This document shows, piece after piece, positions 1,779-22,686 of a stretch of DNA of 64,000 bases (its first letter is position 1; every line of letters begins with the position of its first letter). The notes beneath the pieces are model-generated. The model did no database searches and was not told the DNA's origin. It was given only the letters and a program-made list of their open reading frames with translations. Made by a program: the position numbers and the translations under genes. Origin of the DNA: Candidatus Poribacteria bacterium (GTDB lineage: Bacteria; Poribacteria; WGA-4E; JAJDTR01); the NCBI GenBank assembly GCA_965222225.1, contig CBDCTK010000002.1:1824001-1888000 (forward strand), given 5' to 3'.

Positions 1779-2918
1779 ATGAACAAGTACCGTATTGCGA
1801 TTATTGGCTTAGGCGGCATGGGAAGGAGTCATGCCGAGGCGGTGGAGTTGGAGGCGAACTGCGAACTTGTTTCCGGGGCGGATATTGATCCGGGGCGCGC
1901 AGCATCTTGGGGGGAGCGTTTTGGCGTTAAAGCCATTTACGACGACTACGAAAGGATGCTTGATGAACAACGACAGGACATCGTCATCATCCCAACTCAG
2001 GCTCCGATACACCACGCCCCCACGGTTGCTGCGGCAAAGCGCGGCATCCACGTCTTCTGTGAAAAGCCGGCTGCCCTTAACCTCCTTGAAGCTGACGAGA
2101 TGGTAGAAACTTGTGACAAGCACAATGTCAAGTTTGCCATCAATCACATTAAACGCGCTAGCCCCTACAATCGGCACGTCCTATCGCTGATTGAAAACGG
2201 CGAAATCGGAGAAGTGGTTCTACTACAGGCAACGGACAAGGGTGGACGCAAGGCGGGCAACTCGCTGATGGAGATGGGCACGCATCTTTACGATTGGGTG
2301 CGGCTTTTCGGCGGCGATGTGGAGTGGACGCACGCGCACCTCGTTCAGATGGATGGTCGCGAATCAACTGTGGATGACATCAAGCATACTCAAGAGGTCC
2401 ACCCGCATGACCGTGATGCCGGAATTGTGCTTGGCGAGCGAGGCCACGCCTCGTTTCGCTTTAAGAATGGCATCCACGCAGATGCGCAATTTATCGGCCA
2501 ATCCCAGACAAACGATGACGGCTACGGTATTGACATCATCGGTACTGAAGGTCGAATCGCTGTTCGAGAAAGTGTTGGCACAACCATGTTTATCCATAGA
2601 GGGCAACACAAGACGCCGGCGGAGGCATGGGAACCGGTGCATCTTCCTGCCGAGGACCTTGACGAGGTAGGAAATCCCCGAGATCAAGGCACCATACGGT
2701 TATTATTGCAACGCCTTATGCTTCGCGATCTGATTGAAGCCATTGAGGAAGACCGCGACCCGTTCGCAAGCGGCAGGGATGGTCGCGATTGCCTCGAAAT
2801 GATTCACGCAACTTGGGAATCACATCGGCGGAAAACTCGGGTGTATATGCCACTAACCCCACGTGAACATCCACTTGAGCGATGGAGGCGCGAGGAACAC
2901 GACGCCTCTTTCAATTGA
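1779..2918 (+). CDS. Gfo/Idh/MocA family oxidoreductase
   Basis: IAIIGLGGMG Rossmann motif, HVFCEKP and EMGTHLYD motifs; ATG at 1779. Confidence 0.92.
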   Translation: MNKYRIAIIGLGGMGRSHAEAVELEANCELVSGADIDPGRAASWGERFGVKAIYDDYERMLDEQRQDIVIIPTQAPIHHAPTVAAAKRGIHVFCEKPAALNLLEADEMVETCDKHNVKFAINHIKRASPYNRHVLSLIENGEIGEVVLLQATDKGGRKAGNSLMEMGTHLYDWVRLFGGDVEWTHAHLVQMDGRESTVDDIKHTQEVHPHDRDAGIVLGERGHASFRFKNGIHADAQFIGQSQTNDDGYGIDIIGTEGRIAVRESVGTTMFIHRGQHKTPAEAWEPVHLPAEDLDEVGNPRDQGTIRLLLQRLMLRDLIEAIEEDRDPFASGRDGRDCLEMIHATWESHRRKTRVYMPLTPREHPLERWRREEHDASFN

Positions 2919-3157
2919 AACGCAATTCCAGTCGGTATCCCTGAATTGCCACCTTGATAAACTCGACTTTGTACATTTAAGCGGCATAACAGATGACGTC
3001 AATCAAGCGTTGAAGAAAAGCGGGGGAGGTTGTGGTTGTCTGGTCTTCTTGGTCGACCGTTGAAAAAGTCGCCTCGGATTCGGCAGACCAGAACTAGTGT
3101 CTCACCCACCCCAGTGCGCCGGAGTCGCCAGTGGTTTCTGATACTATGCGACCTGTA

Positions 3158-5763: not shown

Positions 5764-6126
5764 TAATCTCTAATCAACGATTAGCTTTACTCTGATATTG
5801 AGGAAATCGGGGGATTAGACATGTGTTCTGCTCCTTAGAAGATTTCATACAAGCATATCCCAAGTACCTCCCATGTCAAGCCCAAAATTTAGATGCGTTT
5901 CCCCTGGGAAGACTGGAAGGGTGGAAGTTTGGAAGAATGGGAAAGTGGGACACAGATAAATACGGATTCAAACACAGGAGTAGTAAAGAAGGAAGATTGG
6001 AAGGATAGTAGCAAAACGGTGGCTAATGGTCAATAGTTAGAAAAAAAGGCGCCATGCAAAGCTACACGAGTGTCTCCGACAGGGCGCCCTTCTGAATCCT
6101 CGGCTAAATGCTATTGTTTTCTTGGT

Positions 6127-15925: not shown

Positions 15926-16969
15926 CTATTTGTTGTGCCGTCTACTCGCTAGGAATGAATCAAGTTGCTCAACGGTGTCAAAGATTCTTTCGCACAAGTT
16001 CTCAAAGAATGGACTGCGGGCATGGGAGTATACGGCGTAGACCGGCTTGTTGTAACGAGACGCATAGTTCATCTCGCTTAACACGCCCGGAGAGAGTTTA
16101 TCGGTTGGATAAAGCACAACGACGAAATCGCTCTGATGAATGAATTGAAAATCCCTTGAGATGGTGCGTGTCTTTATCTGCTCGCTAAAACTCGCGTCAA
16201 GATTGCTAATGGTGGTGATTCTGTCTGAAGTTACTAGCTCCGGTTTCACGCTCAGTTCGGCTTCTGCGTCGTGAATTAACTCCATATCTTTTATATCTAG
16301 CGGATCGAACACGATAAAATGCTTGCGCATCTTCGATCCAAACGCATGAATCTTTTTGAGGTGGTCGGTGCTCTCCCGTAGCAGAGTGATTGGATAACTG
16401 AGATACAATTTCTGTTTGTCGGAAAATAAGAGATCGTAAAAGTTCTCAAGATCGTGCCGTCGTGCCACTGTATAGTGAGGTTTGCTGTTGAGGATCGCCA
16501 TCTGCTTAGTTAGGAACTCCTCCTCATCTAGCCAGACGTTAATCTCTTCGCGACGCATACCCGTCCACTGAGGATTCGGCGTCATACGATCTGTGATATC
16601 TGCAAGGTCATCAACCACATTCACAAACACATCTGCCGGAAACTCCCGAATGTCCCGAAAAGATATCCCCTCAATCAATCTACCACGCCAGCGAAAGCAC
16701 GAATGAAGTCCGATAAACGCATGCTCGTATTCGGAGGCGCGATTGGCAATTTCGTGGAACGCAGACCGACGCGCTAAGGAGAGCACGGCAGGATCGGAAT
16801 CGAGTACTTTTTCCGTGAAGCGCACTCCGGATTCGGCAGCGGCACGGTGCATGAAATCACCTACGTTAAAAAACCCGATCCGCACTTTTTTTTCGCGACA
16901 GAGCGCTTCAAAATCCGCCATCAACTCCTTTCTGCCGGAGCAACTGATTCCTGTGCAGATGATATTCAT
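15926..16969 (-). CDS. Archaeal-adenylate-kinase-like P-loop domain fused to a nucleoside 2-deoxyribosyltransferase-like domain
   Basis: N-terminal TGISCSGRK (degenerate Walker A), NVGDFM, H..FRW; C-terminal LYLSYPIT, RDFQFIHQSD, SPGVLSEMNYA...KPVY. Confidence 0.7.
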   Translation of the reverse strand: MNIICTGISCSGRKELMADFEALCREKKVRIGFFNVGDFMHRAAAESGVRFTEKVLDSDPAVLSLARRSAFHEIANRASEYEHAFIGLHSCFRWRGRLIEGISFRDIREFPADVFVNVVDDLADITDRMTPNPQWTGMRREEINVWLDEEEFLTKQMAILNSKPHYTVARRHDLENFYDLLFSDKQKLYLSYPITLLRESTDHLKKIHAFGSKMRKHFIVFDPLDIKDMELIHDAEAELSVKPELVTSDRITTISNLDASFSEQIKTRTISRDFQFIHQSDFVVVLYPTDKLSPGVLSEMNYASRYNKPVYAVYSHARSPFFENLCERIFDTVEQLDSFLASRRHNK

Positions 16970-17232: not shown

Positions 17233-18363
17233 TCACGCCCCATTGGCTTCGCTGGCTTGAGGCCTGAGCAGAATTAGCGCGACTAATGCGGCAACCGAAG
17301 AGATGGATCCTGCGACGACAAATGCCCCTGAAAGCCCAAAGATATCCGCAACGGCGCCGGATGTCATGGGGCCAAGAAACATCCCGATGGCATACGTGGC
17401 TTGAAAGGCCCCCATCGCCGTTGCACGGTCCTGATCGGGTATCTGCCGAATGCTCAAGCCCATCAGCAAAGGGTACGTCATGCCGCGTCCAAACCCACTG
17501 ATACCTTGGGTGATTGCTAGGAGTGGCAGGTTTGTGACAATGGGAACGACAAACGCCATCCCCGCCATAATGAGAATGCCCACGAAAAGCGCACGATTTT
17601 CGCCTAAACGATCGGCAACGCGATGATTGACCAGTGACGCTAGAGTGTAGGGCAGCAGGGCAACCACACCAATGACGCCGAGTGCCGATTTACTCGCACC
17701 CAATCCATCTGCATACAACGGGACAAAGCCAAATGTCGTTGCCCAGATGACATATTGATTCAGAGCGGAGATTAGCGCTGTAGTGATTACTGTCCGGTGA
17801 ATCATTACCGAGCGAATCTGTCGCACGGTAAGAGATTTTCTAATTGCTCGCGGTTCCCTAATCGGCGCGGTTGAAATAATACCGAAAACCGCCAAAATAG
17901 CACCGACATAGAATGTAGATTCCATTCACCAGATTTCGGCAATCTGTCCTCCTAGACCGATAAAGACCGTTAACGATATGCCGTTGATTGCGCTGACGAC
18001 ACCCATTGCCTTGGGCGTTTCATCCGGCGGAAAGTAACTTGCATACAATACCGTGAATCCAACCCAAGTCGACGCACTGATACCGAACACACCGCGGGCC
18101 AGGACTAGATATGCCGGGTTAGGCGCAAGAGCAAGCCCCAGGCACCCAAGCAAGTTGAAGAAGTGACCTGCGTAAAGGAAAGGCAGGCGCCTCCCCAGAC
18201 GATCCGACCAAATGCCGACCGGAATTCGCAGGAGCATTTGAACGAAACCGTACGCCCCAACAATGACACCCACGGTCGTGAATGAAGCGCCTAGCGATGC
18301 GGCGTAAACAGACAATATAGGTGAGTAGACGTATAGCGCAGCCCAATACAGAAACATCGCCAC
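17233..18363 (-). pseudogene. MFS transporter split by an in-frame stop
   Basis: Two same-frame ORFs separated only by TGA at 17926-17928 (EIW*MES, Gly expected). MFS motif GIWSDRLGRR; true start codon unclear. Confidence 0.85.
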
Positions 18364-18653: not shown

Positions 18654-21600
18654 CTACGATTTGTCAACTTCATGTGTGCATACATCCTCGTGGCTATCAA
18701 TCGCTGGCAAACCGACGAACATGCGGCTATCAATATCTGCAAGTGGTTCCACTGACCCCGTTACCGCCGCACGCGCAAAGACAATCCCGGGGCGATTGGC
18801 TTGCATTGCCCGACCGAGCACCGAAGCCTGATCGCCGATAGGGTTATTGCGTTTCACGCTGCGTCCAAGTTCTGCAATTTCACGTTGAACTCTGACTAGG
18901 GCTTCCCAGTGGCGGTGTGCAACTGCACGAAGATCTTCCGGTCTCAGTCCCTCCCGATAACTGCGCCGGACATTGGGCGGAGTCGGAAGACCGTATTTCG
19001 TACTGTTCCATCGCACAACCATCTGGGAGAATGATTCGAGTCTGCCCTGTGCAAGGCTTTTCACTGCGAGCAATTGTGGACCCACGTCATTGTCGCTGAA
19101 GTCCTTTCGAGTTGCGAGTTGCTCGTTCATTTCCTCGGTGTATGCCTCCCACGCCACTTCATCGTGATCCGGAGGCAAAGGCTCTCTTTCCAAGCTTTCA
19201 CCAATGAATGGACTAATTGACGCGCCTGATTCCTTCGCTAGGTCAAAACCGCGCTTCATCAATTCCTGAATGGTACAGAGCGTTTTCGTGGCGCCGTCAC
19301 GTTCCAAGACAATCTGCAGTGCCCATCCGAGCGTATTTCGCGTAATAAATCCTTCAGGTGCGTCCACGTCAACGCCCGTTAGCCTTGAGATTTCCGCGCG
19401 TCCATCTGCGGTCAGGCTCAGATTTGCAAGCCCCCACATCGGATCCAGTGCCGGTATAAGGGCTTCAAGCAATCCAGGATCGCGATTAAGTCTTGGACGG
19501 AGTCCGCGTGTAGTCGAAAATATCGGAAGCACGGAGTCTAGCGCTCCCGGGTCGCGTTCAAGATGCGAAACGAGGGTAAGTTTTTCTCGCGCCTCGGTTT
19601 GTGCAGCCTCGGTAATTGGCAGAATTACTGCGGCTTGATCTCCGTCAAAATCCACATTCATAGGCCTACAGACAACGGGTGGGATATGGATGGCATTGTC
19701 CTGGCGCCGTACCGGTCGAAATGCGAGAAACTGGGTTGGTGTTATAGCGGGAGCGCGATACAGAATCACCCACGAGCGGTTCATGATGGTATCAAGTGCT
19801 TGTGATGCATCTTTGGTTCGTTTACTGACTTCCACAGAGTTTTGAATCTCTCGTGTCACTATTGGTCCGAAAAGCTTCCATGCCATCTCTTCAGGAATTC
19901 CAATTTGATCGTGCTGTAGGCGAATATCCGGGACAATCACCCCCCGTCCGCTAAAAACTGACCGCGTGTTGAAGGCGAGATGACGGTGGGTAACGAGCAC
20001 GTCAAAATATTCTCGAACGCAAGATTCTAGCTGATAAAGCGTCTGACGAATGAGACTCTCGGGCGCATTGTTAGCAAGCATTCGATTTGCTCGATCGTTG
20101 ACCGTAACAAGGTTCTCGTAAGCAGTGGAAATGTTGGTATTTACGATTCTCGTCTCGTCAATCCACCATGCATTGTTGTATTCGCGCGGACTTGATGCGG
20201 TTCCGAAAAAGTCGCCATCTTCAGGGACGCCCACCTCGTCGATTGTATGCTGGCGCAGCCAAGGATGAGGAATTGGACGAGCTAGTTTGAGCGATTCGCC
20301 ATCAGGCGGCTTGAGACGGAATTTCATCGTCGGATAGCTCCTAGTCCCATCTCCCGATCCTAATGGGTGCGAGCCCTCAAGTTCGGTGCGAATGCCAGCG
20401 AAGGCAAGACGCTTCATCAGATTGACAAACCGCGGGGCAAAGCCAGCATGTTGTTCAACTTCTCCACGGGCGACACGATCCGCGAGTGTATTTATATCTA
20501 CCCAGTCTGTAGAGCAAGTATGGTAACGTTCATAAAGATTGTTGAAAACAGCAAGATTGCGCAAGACACTATACTCGATGTTACCTAACCCCTGGCCGTA
20601 AGTCAGTCCCTCACGAGCGGGCCTAATTTTCTCCCGCGCAATGTGGCGTACACGCCCCCAATACACCCAACCAACCGTGCTAGGGCGCTCGAGTCTTTTC
20701 CCATTCTTACCGAGTGTGAGGTATTCCATGCCATTCTCGGGCAGTCTCGCACGTTTCAGACGCTTGCTTAACTCTTCAATGCTTGGGGCACCAAAGGAGG
20801 GTACGATTATTGGTTCTCCTTCAACTTTCGCGACGCGGCTCATGATTGCTTCCCTTAATTGTCCAACGTTCATCCGTGTCTGCACGCCAAACGAGTTGTA
20901 AACAATTTCAACCGGAGTTCCCTCAGTGAGATGTGGCATTTCATCGTCCGGCACAATGCGGGAAATGCAGCCTTTCGAGCCGTGACGGTTCGCAAATGCA
21001 TCGCCGGGTTCAACAGGATAGGGGTAACTGAAACGATTCGCACACGACTCGCTAATGACGATTGCATCCTCGAAAGTATCAACTCCCCACGGTACAAAAG
21101 CCGTCAGTACATTTCGTCCGCACCAAAATCTGTCGGCATCAAAACTATTCTCGGTCTGAACAAGTGCGGGTTCGGGGTCAGGCGGAACGTAGAATTGACG
21201 CTGCATGCCCAGCCCCATTTGCTGATGGTTTGGGTCGTTGTGCTCGATAAACGGCACAAGCGAAGCACTGAGTCCGAGTCCGGCTTCCGGCCGATTATCG
21301 ACGACGATTAGCTTGCCATCGCGAATCTCTGCTCCAACTGCGATGCTCAAAATCTTACCAACACTTGGTCCCTCAGGTGTTTCATATGGACACACGCGAC
21401 TAAAATAACTCGGATTCATGACACGATTTTGCCATTCAACACGGATGCGGCGAAGATTGGTTTGTCGATCAAGCCAGTTGAAACTCTGAAGGCGCCGGAT
21501 GGATGGTTGACTCGCGAAGAATTCGAGAACCCATGTGTGGAGCGAAAACCAAGATTTAACGAGCGAGGCATCCCATGAAAAATCGGGAGGAGTGCTTCCT

Positions 21601-21935
21601 AGGCGCTCCGCGATGAAATCGCACAGTTGCTCGCCGACACATTTTATCTCGGCGGCGGCGAGATCTTCATTTTGAGCGATTGGCAGGACGATTCGCTCCT
21701 TACCATCAATATTGAATACCCCGTCATCATCTGGCTGTGGAATGTCGGTATACGATTCGTCTAGGTTGCCCGAACCGAATCCAAATGCAATCTCAATGCG
21801 ACAAGTATACGTACTTGTTGATTCAACGTGATAGCCAGCCAGCGGCATACGCACCGCGAGAAGTTCTGGTAGCCGATTGTTGGTGAATCGGTTAAACGAT
21901 TCTTTGTGCCAAAAAGCGGTAATATTGCGGGACAT
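18654..21935 (-). CDS. Miniaturised single-chain RNA polymerase beta-beta' (RpoB-RpoC) fusion paralogue
   Basis: Collinear RpoB motifs (CPYETPEGP, SLVPFIEHND, MQRQ, FEDAIVIS, NRHGSKG, TRMNVGQ) followed by RpoC motifs (FSGRGVI, YRAP, NVDFDGDQ, SYREGL) in 1093 aa; AGGAG RBS. Confidence 0.9.
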   Translation of the reverse strand: MSRNITAFWHKESFNRFTNNRLPELLAVRMPLAGYHVESTSTYTCRIEIAFGFGSGNLDESYTDIPQPDDDGVFNIDGKERIVLPIAQNEDLAAAEIKCVGEQLCDFIAERLGSTPPDFSWDASLVKSWFSLHTWVLEFFASQPSIRRLQSFNWLDRQTNLRRIRVEWQNRVMNPSYFSRVCPYETPEGPSVGKILSIAVGAEIRDGKLIVVDNRPEAGLGLSASLVPFIEHNDPNHQQMGLGMQRQFYVPPDPEPALVQTENSFDADRFWCGRNVLTAFVPWGVDTFEDAIVISESCANRFSYPYPVEPGDAFANRHGSKGCISRIVPDDEMPHLTEGTPVEIVYNSFGVQTRMNVGQLREAIMSRVAKVEGEPIIVPSFGAPSIEELSKRLKRARLPENGMEYLTLGKNGKRLERPSTVGWVYWGRVRHIAREKIRPAREGLTYGQGLGNIEYSVLRNLAVFNNLYERYHTCSTDWVDINTLADRVARGEVEQHAGFAPRFVNLMKRLAFAGIRTELEGSHPLGSGDGTRSYPTMKFRLKPPDGESLKLARPIPHPWLRQHTIDEVGVPEDGDFFGTASSPREYNNAWWIDETRIVNTNISTAYENLVTVNDRANRMLANNAPESLIRQTLYQLESCVREYFDVLVTHRHLAFNTRSVFSGRGVIVPDIRLQHDQIGIPEEMAWKLFGPIVTREIQNSVEVSKRTKDASQALDTIMNRSWVILYRAPAITPTQFLAFRPVRRQDNAIHIPPVVCRPMNVDFDGDQAAVILPITEAAQTEAREKLTLVSHLERDPGALDSVLPIFSTTRGLRPRLNRDPGLLEALIPALDPMWGLANLSLTADGRAEISRLTGVDVDAPEGFITRNTLGWALQIVLERDGATKTLCTIQELMKRGFDLAKESGASISPFIGESLEREPLPPDHDEVAWEAYTEEMNEQLATRKDFSDNDVGPQLLAVKSLAQGRLESFSQMVVRWNSTKYGLPTPPNVRRSYREGLRPEDLRAVAHRHWEALVRVQREIAELGRSVKRNNPIGDQASVLGRAMQANRPGIVFARAAVTGSVEPLADIDSRMFVGLPAIDSHEDVCTHEVDKS

Positions 21936-22019: not shown

Positions 22020-22625
22020 TCACCATTCATGCCATTCAATGCCAAGTTCCTTCCATTCGCGTGCGAGACGTTTCAGTGTATAGTGCAAACGCGATTTGAC
22101 TGTGCCTATTGGGACACCGAGTTCATCAGCGACCTGCCGAATGTCCATTTCTGCACCGTAGACGAGGTGAAGAACCTCTCGCTTCTCATCGGGCAAGTCG
22201 TCTACAAGTTCCCATAGGAATTCGGACTGTTCGGCTTGTTCAAGCATCACTTGAGGGTCTGGCGATGCGCTGTCGATTAACCAGGTTGGCATCTGTGTAA
22301 GAGCGCCATCTTCGTCATCATAGGGCTCTTCGGGAACTTCAAGTGGCTGCTGTCTGCGTCGATGCACCGTTCGAAGGTGATTAAGGGCGAGATTGGTCGC
22401 AATGCGGTAAAGCCATGACTTCAATTCGCCGCGTCCATCCCACTGTGCCGCACATGTCCATACCCGAAGGAAAACCTCTTGGACCAAATCTTCAGTGGCA
22501 CCTTCGTCTCGGACAGTACGCAGGATGTGCTTGTAGAGGACGTGCCTGTAGCGCTCAAAAAGGATTTCAAACGCAATGGTATTTCGCCCGCGAATCTGCT
22601 CAATGAGTTCCCGATCAGATTGCAT
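22020..22625 (-). CDS. ECF RNA polymerase sigma-70 factor directly upstream of the mini-RNAP gene
   Basis: EDLVQEVFLRVW, KSWLYRIATN, VADELGVPIGTVKSRLHY motifs; AAAGGA RBS. Confidence 0.94.
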   Translation of the reverse strand: MQSDRELIEQIRGRNTIAFEILFERYRHVLYKHILRTVRDEGATEDLVQEVFLRVWTCAAQWDGRGELKSWLYRIATNLALNHLRTVHRRRQQPLEVPEEPYDDEDGALTQMPTWLIDSASPDPQVMLEQAEQSEFLWELVDDLPDEKREVLHLVYGAEMDIRQVADELGVPIGTVKSRLHYTLKRLAREWKELGIEWHEW

Positions 22626-22656: not shown

Positions 22657-22686
22657 GGATGACACCGCAGGATGGACGACGGTTCA
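22657..22686 (-). promoter_or_regulatory. Putative ECF-type (autoregulatory) promoter
   Basis: TGAACC-N17-GTCATC about 30 nt upstream of the sigma start codon; matches the generic ECF GAAC...GTC pattern. Confidence 0.5.

What the first reader, a model, noticed from the sequence alone, without database searches (positions are those of the whole stretch)
18654..21935. Miniaturised single-chain RpoB-RpoC RNA polymerase paralogue
SEEN: one intact 1093-aa ORF. Residues about 1-520 follow RpoB in order (DIP...GVFNIDGKER, VGEQL, EFF, CPYETPEGP, SLVPFIEHND..MQRQ, GRNVLTAFVPW..FEDAIVIS, GDAFANRHGSKG, TRMNVGQ, TVGWVY...H, PRFVNLMKRL..GI). Residues about 540-1075 follow RpoC (LARPIPHPW, clamp helices AYENLVTVNDRANRMLANNAPESLIR, FSGRGVI, YRAP, catalytic NVDFDGD at 19638-19658, KESGASI, bridge-helix entry SYREGL, C-terminal AAVTG.VEPL...FVG). 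KNOWN: E. coli beta plus beta' total about 2750 aa, and the natural fusions in Helicobacter and Wolbachia are full length. INFERRED from by-eye alignment: only about 20 aa separate FED from GDxxxRHG (about 250 in E. coli), so the beta flap is deleted. The beta' zinc finger, rudder, jaw and whole trigger-loop region are also missing, and the beta K1065 equivalent is Ala. The Mg-binding Asp triad, beta Glu-Asp, K1073 equivalent and sigma2-binding clamp helices remain. Clean domain-level deletions in an open frame suggest a selected function: a minimal specialised polymerase or primase, or an RNAP mimic that sequesters sigma or alpha. I know of no characterised enzyme with this architecture; YonO and crAss gp66 are not collinear RpoBC miniatures.
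Basis: partly seen in the sequence, partly recalled or inferred. Interest (0 to 1): 0.93.

Follow-up and report, generated by a model that had tools for sequence, protein, structure and literature searches.

The report
Mini RNA polymerase with own sigma
This gene encodes a shrunken, single-chain relative of the bacterial RNA polymerase beta and beta-prime subunits that is always paired with its own sigma factor and promoter, so it may be an undescribed self-contained transcription module found in several bacterial phyla.

Summary
Window 18654-21935 (-) is an intact 1093-aa ORF. Its N-terminal half is collinear with RpoB and its C-terminal half with RpoC. The flap, the beta' N-terminus and everything after the bridge helix (trigger loop, jaw) are deleted. 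The genome also has canonical rpoB and rpoC. It is not a decaying duplicate: 119 of the 120 best homologues are 1002-1106 aa with the same domains, 249 species genomes encode relatives, dN/dS is 0.13-0.21, and the Mg-binding Asp residues are invariant or nearly so.

New here:
- A dedicated ECF-type sigma gene lies directly upstream in 76 of 80 loci, often overlapping the polymerase start.
- Sigma and polymerase co-occur exactly in a 151-genome phylum sample (29 genomes with both; in one genome the sigma is a pseudogene and the polymerase is gone).
- A promoter, TGAAC-N15-GGTGTC, precedes the sigma gene in 64 of 76 regions. In this genome it occurs convincingly only there.

Best reading (about 0.5): an active minimal polymerase that works with its own sigma in a self-activating operon. 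Its other templates are unknown. I found no description in print, but two key papers and all supplements could not be read.

The parts
18654..21935 (-). Mini RNA polymerase gene: 1093 aa, a single chain with a beta-like half followed by a beta'-like half
   Evidence: ORF. Pfam Rpb2_3, Rpb2_6 and Rpb1_2. Collinear profile matches to this genome's own RpoB and RpoC. AlphaFold2 model with mean pLDDT 70 and pTM 0.60. The 50 listed Foldseek PDB hits are all RNA-polymerase complex entries, mostly chain D or J, which I read as bacterial beta'.
21666..21935 (-). Family-specific N-terminal domain, residues 1-90 (invariant W9, H10, S13, L22, P23)
   Evidence: Confidently modelled, with pLDDT block means of about 66-91 over residues 11-100. 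Conserved in alignments A1 and A3. Only a weak match to RpoB 130-154.
20331..21665 (-). Beta-like half, residues 91-535, including the CPYETPEGP and MQRQ motifs and the beta double-psi barrel
   Evidence: hhalign against own RpoB 555-1418, probability 100, E 7.6e-42. P183, E185, P187, E188, G189, R246 and Q247 are each present in 30 of 30 members.
21012..21041 (-). Site of the flap deletion, residues 299-308, which replace about 233 positions of the rpoB model
   Evidence: TIGR02013 positions 749-777 and 1010-1143 match flanking stretches only about 9 residues apart. The gap is visible.
20970..21005 (-). GDAFANRHGSKG active-site loop of the beta barrel, residues 311-322; A313 is the E. coli K1065 equivalent and K321 the K1073 equivalent
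   Evidence: Offset taken from the alignment to E. coli beta 1060-1129. D312, R317 and H318 are in 30 of 30 members, K321 in 29 of 30. Position 313 is K in 26, A in 3 and M in 1 of 30.
18861..20279 (-). Beta'-like half, residues 553-1025
   Evidence: hhalign against own RpoC 257-804, probability 99.7, E 1.7e-26.
19995..20156 (-). Clamp-helix coiled coil, residues about 594-647, the canonical docking site of sigma region 2
   Evidence: Aligned to the RpoC clamp-helix segment. Two long helices, H594-621 and H626-647, in the model. N613, P625, L628 and L636 are invariant.
19638..19658 (-). NVDFDGD, the Mg-binding motif of the beta' barrel, residues 760-766
   Evidence: D764 and D766 in 30 of 30 members; D762 in 28 of 30 (N in 2); N760 in 30 of 30.
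18846..18968 (-). Bridge-helix region, residues about 990-1030; only about 60 residues follow it, so there is no trigger loop
   Evidence: Aligned to the RpoC bridge helix up to residue 804. Helix H999-1030 in the model.
22020..22625 (-). Dedicated ECF-type sigma factor gene, 201 aa, with a conserved sigma2-sigma4 linker motif P-x-W-[ML]-I-D...G-P
   Evidence: Pfam Sigma70_r2, r4 and ECF. An orthologue lies upstream on the same strand in 76 of 80 loci. Exact co-occurrence with the polymerase. Linker positions P113, W115, D118 and P124 are each at least 90% conserved.
22661..22686 (-). ECF-type promoter of the operon: TGAAC (22686-22682), a 15-nt spacer, GGTGTC (22666-22661), ending 35 nt before the sigma ATG at 22625
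   Evidence: Sequence. The motif is present in 64 of 76 upstream regions, with a 15-nt spacer in 61 of those 64. One-mismatch variants occur in most of the rest. PWM score is 44.1 bits against 12.9 for the next best site in the 5.7-Mb genome.

Best explanation
The ORF encodes a catalytically active, minimal two-barrel RNA polymerase. It arose from bacterial beta and beta' by fusion and loss of peripheral domains: the beta lobes and flap, the beta' N-terminus, part of the rudder, the trigger loop and the jaw. It works with the dedicated ECF-type sigma encoded just upstream. The sigma docks by its region 2 on the retained clamp helices and directs initiation at TGAAC-N15-GGTGTC promoters. In this genome the only convincing promoter of that kind drives the sigma-polymerase operon itself, so the pair would form a self-activating two-gene transcription module.

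SHOWN: the homology and the deletion map, conservation of the active site, purifying selection, the operon layout, strict co-occurrence and co-loss, and the conserved promoter.

INFERRED: that the protein polymerises RNA, that this sigma binds it, that this sigma reads this promoter, and that the mini polymerase rather than the host core initiates there. The physiological output beyond self-expression is unknown.
For: (1) Active site kept under selection. D764, D766, N760, D312, R317, H318, R246, Q247 and the PxExPEG fork motif are each present in 30 of 30 members drawn from several phyla; D762 is in 28 of 30 and K321 in 29 of 30. (2) dN/dS is 0.13-0.21 with dS 0.33-0.67 in 21 of 21 pairs among the window gene and its six closest orthologues. 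(3) The architecture is conserved: 119 of the 120 best database hits are 1002-1106 aa, and 249 of 273 candidate stretches in species genomes were confirmed. (4) The clamp helices, which are the sigma2 docking site of the canonical enzyme, are retained and conserved. (5) A sigma orthologue lies upstream on the same strand in 76 of 80 loci; three of the other four have no upstream DNA. Only these two genes are conserved across the loci. The sigma stop overlaps the polymerase start in 25 of 75 loci, and the gap is 0-30 nt in 17 more. (6) In a 151-genome phylum sample, all 29 genomes with the polymerase have the sigma. The one extra sigma (G050) has two in-frame stops and no mini polymerase. (7) The conserved ECF-type promoter has a fixed spacer and is unique in this genome. 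(8) The sigma linker is conserved, which is unusual for ECF sigmas (from my own knowledge of the family) and would fit a specific channel in a partner. (9) Single-chain two-barrel enzymes can work as RNA polymerases: YonO is reported as a characterised single-peptide RNAP (PMC5467207, abstract as listed). That YonO lacks a trigger loop is recalled. The yeast VLE RNAP is described as lacking lid and rudder (PMC6211774, passages).
Against: (1) No biochemical data exist for any member. (2) The beta flap, the canonical anchor of sigma region 4, is deleted, so it is unclear how a -35/-10 promoter of ordinary ECF geometry would be read. That geometry fits the host core just as well. (3) Only one convincing promoter exists in this genome, so the module has no visible output other than itself. 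(4) This lineage has Ala at the K1065-equivalent position, which might lower activity. (5) The fork region (residues about 155-241) is modelled with low confidence. (6) No natural sigma-polymerase fusion was found (the tool calls this weak evidence). (7) The RNA-library contigs that cover the operon do not prove transcription.
Confidence: 0.5

Rival explanations
1. The sigma is a conventional ECF sigma that uses the host's canonical core to switch on the operon. The mini polymerase is simply its only regulon member. It acts without sigma on some special template, for example making primers or short RNAs, or copying RNA or single-stranded DNA as other reduced two-barrel enzymes do.
For: The promoter has ordinary ECF layout and spacing. 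Another normal ECF sigma/anti-sigma operon in the same genome has a similar core motif about 50 nt upstream. The flap that positions sigma region 4 is missing from the mini polymerase. The active site is conserved. The same group's review proposes a primase-like role for RdRP-like single-subunit enzymes of selfish elements (PMC3417536, passage).
Against: It does not explain why the sigma's sigma2-sigma4 linker is so conserved. It does not explain why the clamp helices are kept, or why the genes are so often translationally coupled. Coupling is typical of proteins that bind each other. No primase- or replication-related neighbour is conserved. No phage or plasmid record holds a full-length member: 0 of 36 phage records and 0 of 68 plasmid records with a match cover 80% of the query.
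Confidence: 0.22
2. The mini polymerase is a core mimic that takes the place of an anti-sigma factor. It binds the sigma through its clamp helices and so buffers or gates the sigma's self-activating loop on the host core. Catalysis is not the point.
For: The gene sits exactly where ordinary ECF operons carry the anti-sigma; the control operon has sigma followed by a zf-HC2 anti-sigma. No other anti-sigma is conserved nearby. The clamp helices are retained. Sigma/anti-sigma pairs are also typically co-transcribed and coupled (from my own knowledge). Co-occurrence is strict.
Against: A decoy would not need about 1000 residues with an invariant Mg-binding motif, basic active-site loop, fork motif and bridge helix across several phyla, held under purifying selection along the whole gene.
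Confidence: 0.12
3. It is a decaying duplicate, a chimeric misassembly, or a gene-call artefact.
For: None found. The Lys-to-Ala change at position 313 and two low-confidence lineage-specific insertions at residues 577-600 and 795-818 are the only oddities.
Against: The ORF is intact. The same continuous architecture appears in independent assemblies from several phyla. dN/dS is 0.13-0.21. A contig spans the beta/beta' junction, with no joints or loose ends in four runs.
Confidence: 0.02

Closest known systems
Yeast cytoplasmic killer-plasmid (virus-like element) RNA polymerase, pGKL2 K2ORF6p (982 aa) with K2ORF7p
   Same: It is a single chain of about 1000 aa with the beta-like part first and the beta'-like part second. 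About half of each parent is deleted. Both barrels and the bridge helix are kept, and lid, rudder and trigger elements are reduced or absent in the large subunit (PMC2919709 and PMC6211774, passages read).
   Different: It is eukaryotic or poxvirus-like in origin (PMC6211774, abstract) and uses no sigma. It has a separate small subunit carrying the beta' C-terminal regions, and it works with a capping enzyme and a helicase on a linear plasmid. The family here is bacterial in origin: its best matches are bacterial beta and beta'. It is chromosomal, has no conserved third gene, and is paired with an ECF-type sigma. I made no direct sequence comparison with K2ORF6p, because no copy was fetched.
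YonO of the Bacillus subtilis SPbeta prophage (single-peptide two-barrel RNA polymerase)
   Same: It is a roughly 100-kDa single chain that is homologous to multisubunit polymerases and is reported as a characterised RNA polymerase (PMC5467207, abstract as listed). That it lacks a trigger loop is recalled.
   Different: YonO shares only very distant homology with the multisubunit enzymes (same abstract). It belongs with the RdRP-like branch that lacks the flap-type insert in the beta barrel (PMC7824862, passage). It is prophage-borne, and I recall that it needs no sigma. The family here is plainly collinear with RpoB and RpoC and was not found on the phages searched. No direct comparison was made.
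Natural full-length beta::beta' fusions (Helicobacter, Wolbachia; NCBIfam NF007172, NF011417)
   Same: The gene order is beta then beta' in one polypeptide.
   Different: Those are the cell's only, full-size polymerase of about 2840-2890 model positions. This protein scores 147.8 bits against a cut-off of 5372, and 157 against 4632. It is 1093 aa long and coexists with canonical rpoB and rpoC.
Ordinary ECF sigma / anti-sigma operons
   Same: The sigma has regions 2 and 4 only. It lies first in a two-gene operon behind a self-type promoter with an AAC-containing -35 and a GTC-containing -10. An example from the same genome is L089.
   Different: The second gene is a polymerase-like protein of about 1000 aa in place of an anti-sigma. 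The sigma linker is conserved. No further target promoter was found in this genome.

Membership tests
Two-barrel (double-psi beta-barrel) RNA polymerase superfamily | A beta-type barrel with the conserved basic loop, plus a beta'-type barrel with the (N)ADFDGD metal-binding motif | tested here: met
   Pfam Rpb2_6 (E 6.5e-37) and Rpb1_2 (E 3.2e-17). GD..NRHG.KG and N.DFDGD are conserved.
Canonical bacterial RpoB (TIGR02013 equivalog) | Score above the curated cut-off, with the full set of beta domains including lobes and flap | tested here: not met
   162.5 bits against a cut-off of 801.15. Model positions about 1-490 are compressed to 160 residues, and 777-1010 to about 9 residues.
Canonical bacterial RpoC (TIGR02386 equivalog) | Score above the curated cut-off; N-terminal zinc-binding region, trigger loop and jaw present | tested here: not met
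   82.1 bits against a cut-off of 963.5. Only RpoC 257-804 of 1412 is represented.
Full-length beta::beta' fusion polymerases (NF007172, NF011417) | Full-size fusion that serves as the cell's sole polymerase | tested here: not met
   147.8 bits against 5372 and 157 against 4632. Separate canonical rpoB and rpoC are present.
Yeast VLE-type Rpb2::Rpb1 polymerase (K2ORF6p/K2ORF7p) | Beta-then-beta' fusion of about 1000 aa | tested here: met
   for this protein. The architecture of K2ORF6p is taken from PMC2919709 (passages).
Yeast VLE-type Rpb2::Rpb1 polymerase (K2ORF6p/K2ORF7p) | A separate small subunit with the beta' C-terminal regions, and eukaryote- or poxvirus-type affinity | tested here: not met
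   No third conserved gene in 80 loci. The nearest relatives are bacterial beta and beta'. The partner is a bacterial sigma.
YonO-like single-chain polymerases | RdRP-like barrels without collinearity to beta and beta' outside the barrels; prophage or phage context | not tested
   No YonO sequence was fetched. Indirectly: the protein is collinear with RpoB and RpoC, and 0 of 36 phage records with a match cover 80% of the query.
ECF (group 4) sigma factors, for the partner gene at 22020-22625 | Sigma regions 2 and 4 only; a match to the ECF superfamily model above its cut-off | tested here: met
   Sigma70_r2, r4 and ECF in Pfam. TIGR02937 scores 108.3 bits against a cut-off of 42.9. None of the 25 best NCBIfam models listed, other than the TIGR02937 superfamily model, reaches its cut-off.
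Known anti-phage defence systems (PADLOC-DB) | A match to any defence-system protein model | tested here: not met
   0 families for either protein.

The most novel reading that the evidence does not exclude
Several bacterial phyla carry a second, autonomous, two-protein transcription machine: one ECF-like sigma plus one single-chain beta-beta' polymerase of about 1000 aa. It would lack alpha, omega, flap and trigger loop, and would recognise its own promoter class. That would make it the smallest sigma-dependent cellular-type RNA polymerase known and a natural orthogonal transcription system. Its self-activating loop might act as a switch or as a back-up when the main polymerase is blocked.
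Probability: 0.4. Interest if true: 0.95.

Novelty: new variant of a known kind. Interest (0 to 1): 0.85.

Why it matters
Cellular-type RNA polymerases are regarded as invariant five-subunit machines of about 400 kDa (PMC5467207, abstract as listed). A conserved 120-kDa single-chain derivative that keeps the active centre and the sigma docking helices, and that travels with its own sigma and promoter, would do several things.

- It would define experimentally the minimal parts needed for sigma-dependent initiation.
- It would show that alpha, omega, flap and trigger loop are dispensable in a natural enzyme.
- It would offer a compact orthogonal transcription pair for synthetic biology.
- It would raise a new physiological question: what does a self-activating second polymerase do in Chloroflexota, Planctomycetota, Poribacteria and related phyla?

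If the sigma instead works with the host core, or the protein is a core mimic, it is still a new kind of ECF-controlled effector or regulator.

Tried and rejected
Complex prediction of the sigma (alignment A2) with residues 540-1093 of the polymerase (alignment A1) gave no verdict. The score was 0.20 against a mark of 0.32, and the controls were not run. It counts neither for nor against binding.

Search for a wider regulon. The bare core TGAAC-N15-GGTGTC occurs 6 times in the genome, and other spacer lengths give 0-10, so that is chance level. The only other intergenic, correctly oriented copy belongs to a different ordinary ECF sigma/anti-sigma operon. Of the nine next-best PWM hits, eight lie inside ORFs and one has no downstream gene. 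In five other complete genomes the core occurs 3-10 times, against 0-3 for the reversed control. By my reading, only the sigma-upstream copy in each shows the extended consensus. I did not examine the other hits further.

The defence-system idea was rejected: 0 PADLOC hits.

The phage or plasmid origin idea was rejected for the collections searched: 0 of 36 phage records and 0 of 68 plasmid records with a match cover 80% of the query. PHROGs gave only generic polymerase and sigma families.

Sigma-polymerase fusion: none of 1994 candidates of 353-2000 aa scored E <= 1e-20. The tool calls this weak evidence.

C-terminal homology to the beta' C-terminus was not detected.

Mobile-element idea. The tree of 78 rows groups largely by phylum, with 11 label changes against about 36 for shuffled labels. 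Five rows (L016, L036, L046, L057, L069) had branch lengths above 3. My longest-ORF rule probably picked the wrong gene in those loci. They stayed in the tree, but I disregard them.

RNA-library contigs cover the operon, but DNA carry-over cannot be excluded, so expression is not shown.

Literature. Searches found no description of this family. PMC3769190 (Iyer and Aravind 2012), PMC151600 and PMC3497475 are not held. Supplements are closed, including the per-group tables of the ECF classification paper PMC7826278. Any of these may mention the family.

Full report
WHAT IS THERE. Window 18654-21935 (minus strand) is one uninterrupted ORF of 1093 codons. Pfam places RNA_pol_Rpb2_3 (residues 159-204), RNA_pol_Rpb2_6 (308-440, E 6.5e-37) and RNA_pol_Rpb1_2 (711-784, E 3.2e-17) in this single chain. 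NCBIfam's rpoB, rpoC and fused rpoBC equivalogs all match, but far below their cut-offs: 162.5 bits against 801, 82.1 against 963.5, and 147.8 against 5372. The same genome (5.7 Mb, 2 contigs, 94.9% complete) has a canonical rpoB (1786 bits) and rpoC (1356 bits for the main piece) about 660 kb away, so this gene is an extra paralogue.

DELETION MAP. I aligned 30 family members (A1) and compared the profile with the genome's own canonical subunits. Residues about 91-535 are collinear with RpoB 555-1418 of 1438 (probability 100, E 7.6e-42). Residues 553-1025 are collinear with RpoC 257-804 of 1412 (probability 99.7, E 1.7e-26).

- rpoB model positions 777-1010, the flap region, correspond to about 9 residues. 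Positions 1-490 correspond to 160 residues.
- On the beta' side the first 256 residues are missing and the rudder segment is shortened.
- The clamp-helix coiled coil, the FSGR switch-2 remnant, the NADFDGD barrel and the bridge helix are kept.
- Only about 60 residues follow the bridge helix, so there is no trigger loop or jaw.

The AlphaFold2 model (mean pLDDT 70, pTM 0.60) has confident barrels and a long two-helix coiled coil at residues 594-647. Its low-confidence stretches include the fork region (residues about 155-241), inter-domain linkers and two insertions. The 50 listed Foldseek hits in the PDB are all RNA-polymerase complex entries, mostly chain D or J, which I read as bacterial beta'. 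They have about 560-625 aligned columns and 15-20% identity. No solved structure belongs to this family.

The N-terminal match (62-86 against RpoB 130-154) reaches only 21% probability. The C-terminal match to the beta' end was not detected, although a similar pattern is visible by eye.

IT IS A SELECTED FAMILY. Of the 120 best hits among 5.8 billion proteins, 119 are 1002-1106 aa and one is a 727-aa fragment. They carry the same Pfam domains (a few lack PF04565), identities fall to 43%, and those that carry a source name are mostly called 'hypothetical protein'. A scan of one genome per species confirmed 249 of 273 candidate stretches. The 80 loci kept come from Candidatus Poribacteria (the nearest relatives of the window, 83-88% identical), Latescibacterota, Chloroflexota, Planctomycetota, Armatimonadota, Gemmatimonas and Hydrogenedentota.

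Catalytic positions are almost frozen:

- D764, D766, N760, D312, R317, H318, R246 and Q247 are each in 30 of 30 members.
- D762 is in 28 of 30, and K321 in 29 of 30.
- The E. coli K1065 equivalent (position 313) is K in 26 of 30 members, A in 3 including the window, and M in 1, so the Ala is a local change.

Nei-Gojobori dN/dS is 0.13-0.21, with dS 0.33-0.67, in all 21 pairs among the window gene and its six closest orthologues.

Contigs of three RNA libraries (two studies) and one DNA run from another study cover the region without joints or loose ends. One contig spans the beta/beta' junction, 19537-20455.

A DEDICATED SIGMA. The gene just upstream (22020-22625) is an ECF-type sigma with regions 2 and 4 only.

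- A close orthologue (94-390 bits) lies upstream on the same strand in 76 of 80 loci. Three of the other four start at a contig edge, and in L050 none was found.
- Clustering all ORFs of at least 70 aa in the 80 loci shows that only the polymerase (80 loci) and the sigma (77 loci) are conserved. The next real cluster covers 12 closely related loci. There is therefore no conserved alpha-, omega- or anti-sigma-like gene.
- In 75 loci the gap between the sigma stop and the polymerase start is negative (-1, -4, -7 or -8) in 25, 0-30 nt in 17, 31-120 nt in 22, and longer in 11.
- In a 151-genome sample of the phylum, the polymerase is found in 29 genomes (families f1 8 of 9, f2 20 of 26, f3 0 of 100) and the sigma in 30. 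All 29 polymerase carriers have the sigma.
- The one extra genome, G050, has a sigma with two in-frame stops and only canonical rpoB and rpoC matches. The two genes are therefore lost together. Related genomes are not independent samples, so this is a pattern and not a statistic.
- The sigma family (A2, 49% mean column identity) has a conserved sigma2-sigma4 linker: P113, W115, D118 and P124 are each at least 90% conserved.

A DEDICATED PROMOTER. In 330-nt regions upstream of the sigma start, GGTGTC occurs in 67 of 76. The bipartite TGAAC-N(10-24)-GGTGTC occurs in 64 of 76, with a spacer of 15 nt in 61, 14 in 2 and 17 in 1. It mostly ends 20-40 nt before the start codon. Most of the remaining 12 carry one-mismatch variants at the same place. 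The flanks are conserved too: T-rich after TGAAC, C-rich then GC before GGTGTC, and an AGT(G/A)GA(A/G)G block downstream that includes the ribosome-binding site.

In the window the motif is at 22686-22661, 35 nt before the ATG at 22625. A 42-nt weight matrix built without the window scores this site at 44.1 bits. The next best site in the whole genome scores 12.9, below the weakest training site at 13.3. The nine next-best sites are inside ORFs or lack a gene. The only other intergenic copy of the bare core belongs to an ordinary ECF sigma/zf-HC2 anti-sigma operon. That confirms the ECF character of the motif. It also shows that the mini polymerase sits where an anti-sigma normally would.

No terminator-like site separates the sigma and polymerase genes. 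A sigma-70-like promoter-like site (11 of 12 matches) follows the polymerase stop, before the next gene. The unit is therefore two genes with a self-type promoter.

WHAT IT IS NOT.

- It matches no PADLOC defence model.
- No phage record (0 of 36 with a match) and no plasmid record (0 of 68) covers 80% of the query.
- The family tree follows phyla fairly well. Poribacteria form one clade with 99% support, and the labels need 11 changes against about 36 when shuffled. Five wrongly picked rows are disregarded. The module is therefore mainly inherited vertically, with some transfer and patchy loss.

HOW IT MOST LIKELY WORKS. The conserved active centre, the bridge helix and the whole-gene constraint argue for nucleotide polymerisation. 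Reduced single-chain or two-subunit two-barrel enzymes are known to function as RNA polymerases: YonO (PMC5467207, abstract as listed; its lack of a trigger loop is recalled) and the yeast VLE enzyme (PMC6211774, passages).

The retained clamp helices, the coupled and co-inherited sigma with its conserved linker, and a promoter found only at this operon lead me to favour a two-protein holoenzyme that activates its own operon (confidence 0.5).

The weak points are the missing flap (the usual anchor of sigma region 4), the ordinary ECF promoter geometry that would suit the host core equally well, and the absence of any visible output beyond self-expression.

Two rivals therefore stay open. In the first, the sigma uses the host core and the polymerase acts elsewhere without sigma (0.22). 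In the second, the polymerase is a core mimic in the anti-sigma slot (0.12). The second is hard to reconcile with the invariant catalytic residues. The complex prediction gave no verdict and is not used as evidence.

COMPARISON AND NOVELTY. The closest architectural analogue is the yeast killer-plasmid Rpb2::Rpb1 fusion. It is poxvirus-like in origin, has a separate small subunit and uses no sigma, so the likeness is convergent. YonO is a far more divergent prophage enzyme (PMC5467207, abstract as listed). The Helicobacter/Wolbachia fusions are full-size. The family therefore belongs to the two-barrel superfamily but to none of its described branches.

Nine full-text searches found no description. 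Neither Pfam, NCBIfam nor the ESM Atlas gives it a specific name. Three possibly relevant papers and all supplements could not be read, so prior mention cannot be excluded. I rate it a new variant of a known kind, of high interest.

Noticed in passing
window 17233-18363 (-), stop codon at 17926-17928: The gene downstream of the polymerase reads as one membrane-transporter-like protein of about 375 aa, judged by eye from the translation, interrupted by a single in-frame TGA (...AEIW*MESTF...). It may be a pseudogene, a sequencing error or a split gene.
   Followed up: partly
G000:C2:529991-531494 (locus L089): A second, ordinary ECF sigma (201 aa) with a zf-HC2 anti-sigma downstream. About 50 nt upstream it has a promoter-like TGAAC-N15-GGTGTC core that lacks the extended consensus.
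   Followed up: yes
genome G050, C1:5436388-5436933: A sigma orthologue with one TGA and one TAG inside, in a genome where the mini polymerase was not found. This looks like a decaying module.
   Followed up: partly
ESM Atlas clusters: Other uncharacterised clusters carry both Rpb2_6 and Rpb1_2 in one protein, with representative lengths of about 1330-1787 aa. One is named with an inorganic pyrophosphatase domain. A 1221-aa cluster carries Rpb2_6 on 66% of its members. Taxa are not recorded. Single-chain beta-beta' proteins seem more varied than the literature I could read suggests.
   Followed up: no
locus L083, 4898-6130 and 6158-7990: In one Armatimonadetes MAG the polymerase is split into ORFs of 410 and 610 aa at about query residue 404-415. 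That is inside the beta-like half and not at the beta/beta' boundary. It could be a frameshift or a real split.
   Followed up: no
genome G151 (holds L016), C1:244168-244193 and C1:1476025-1476050: Two identical extra copies of a promoter-like sequence (TGAACCTC...GGCGGTGTC) in a Latescibacterota genome. They could be a repeated element or additional targets.
   Followed up: no
window residues 577-600 and 795-818 of the ORF (about 20136-20207 and 19482-19553): Two insertions that hhalign shows as insert columns relative to the family profile, both modelled with pLDDT below 50. Together with the Lys-to-Ala change at residue 313, this shows that the window's genus has a somewhat derived copy.
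   Followed up: partly
window 15926-16969 (-): A 347-aa ORF with weak matches, below the Pfam cut-offs, to an AAA_17 kinase-like domain at the N-terminus and to nucleoside 2-deoxyribosyltransferase at the C-terminus. It is not conserved next to the module.
   Followed up: no
locus L010, sigma at 2426-3034 and polymerase at 6001: In one close Poribacteria relative about 3 kb separates the sigma from the polymerase, which suggests an insertion into the operon.
   Followed up: no
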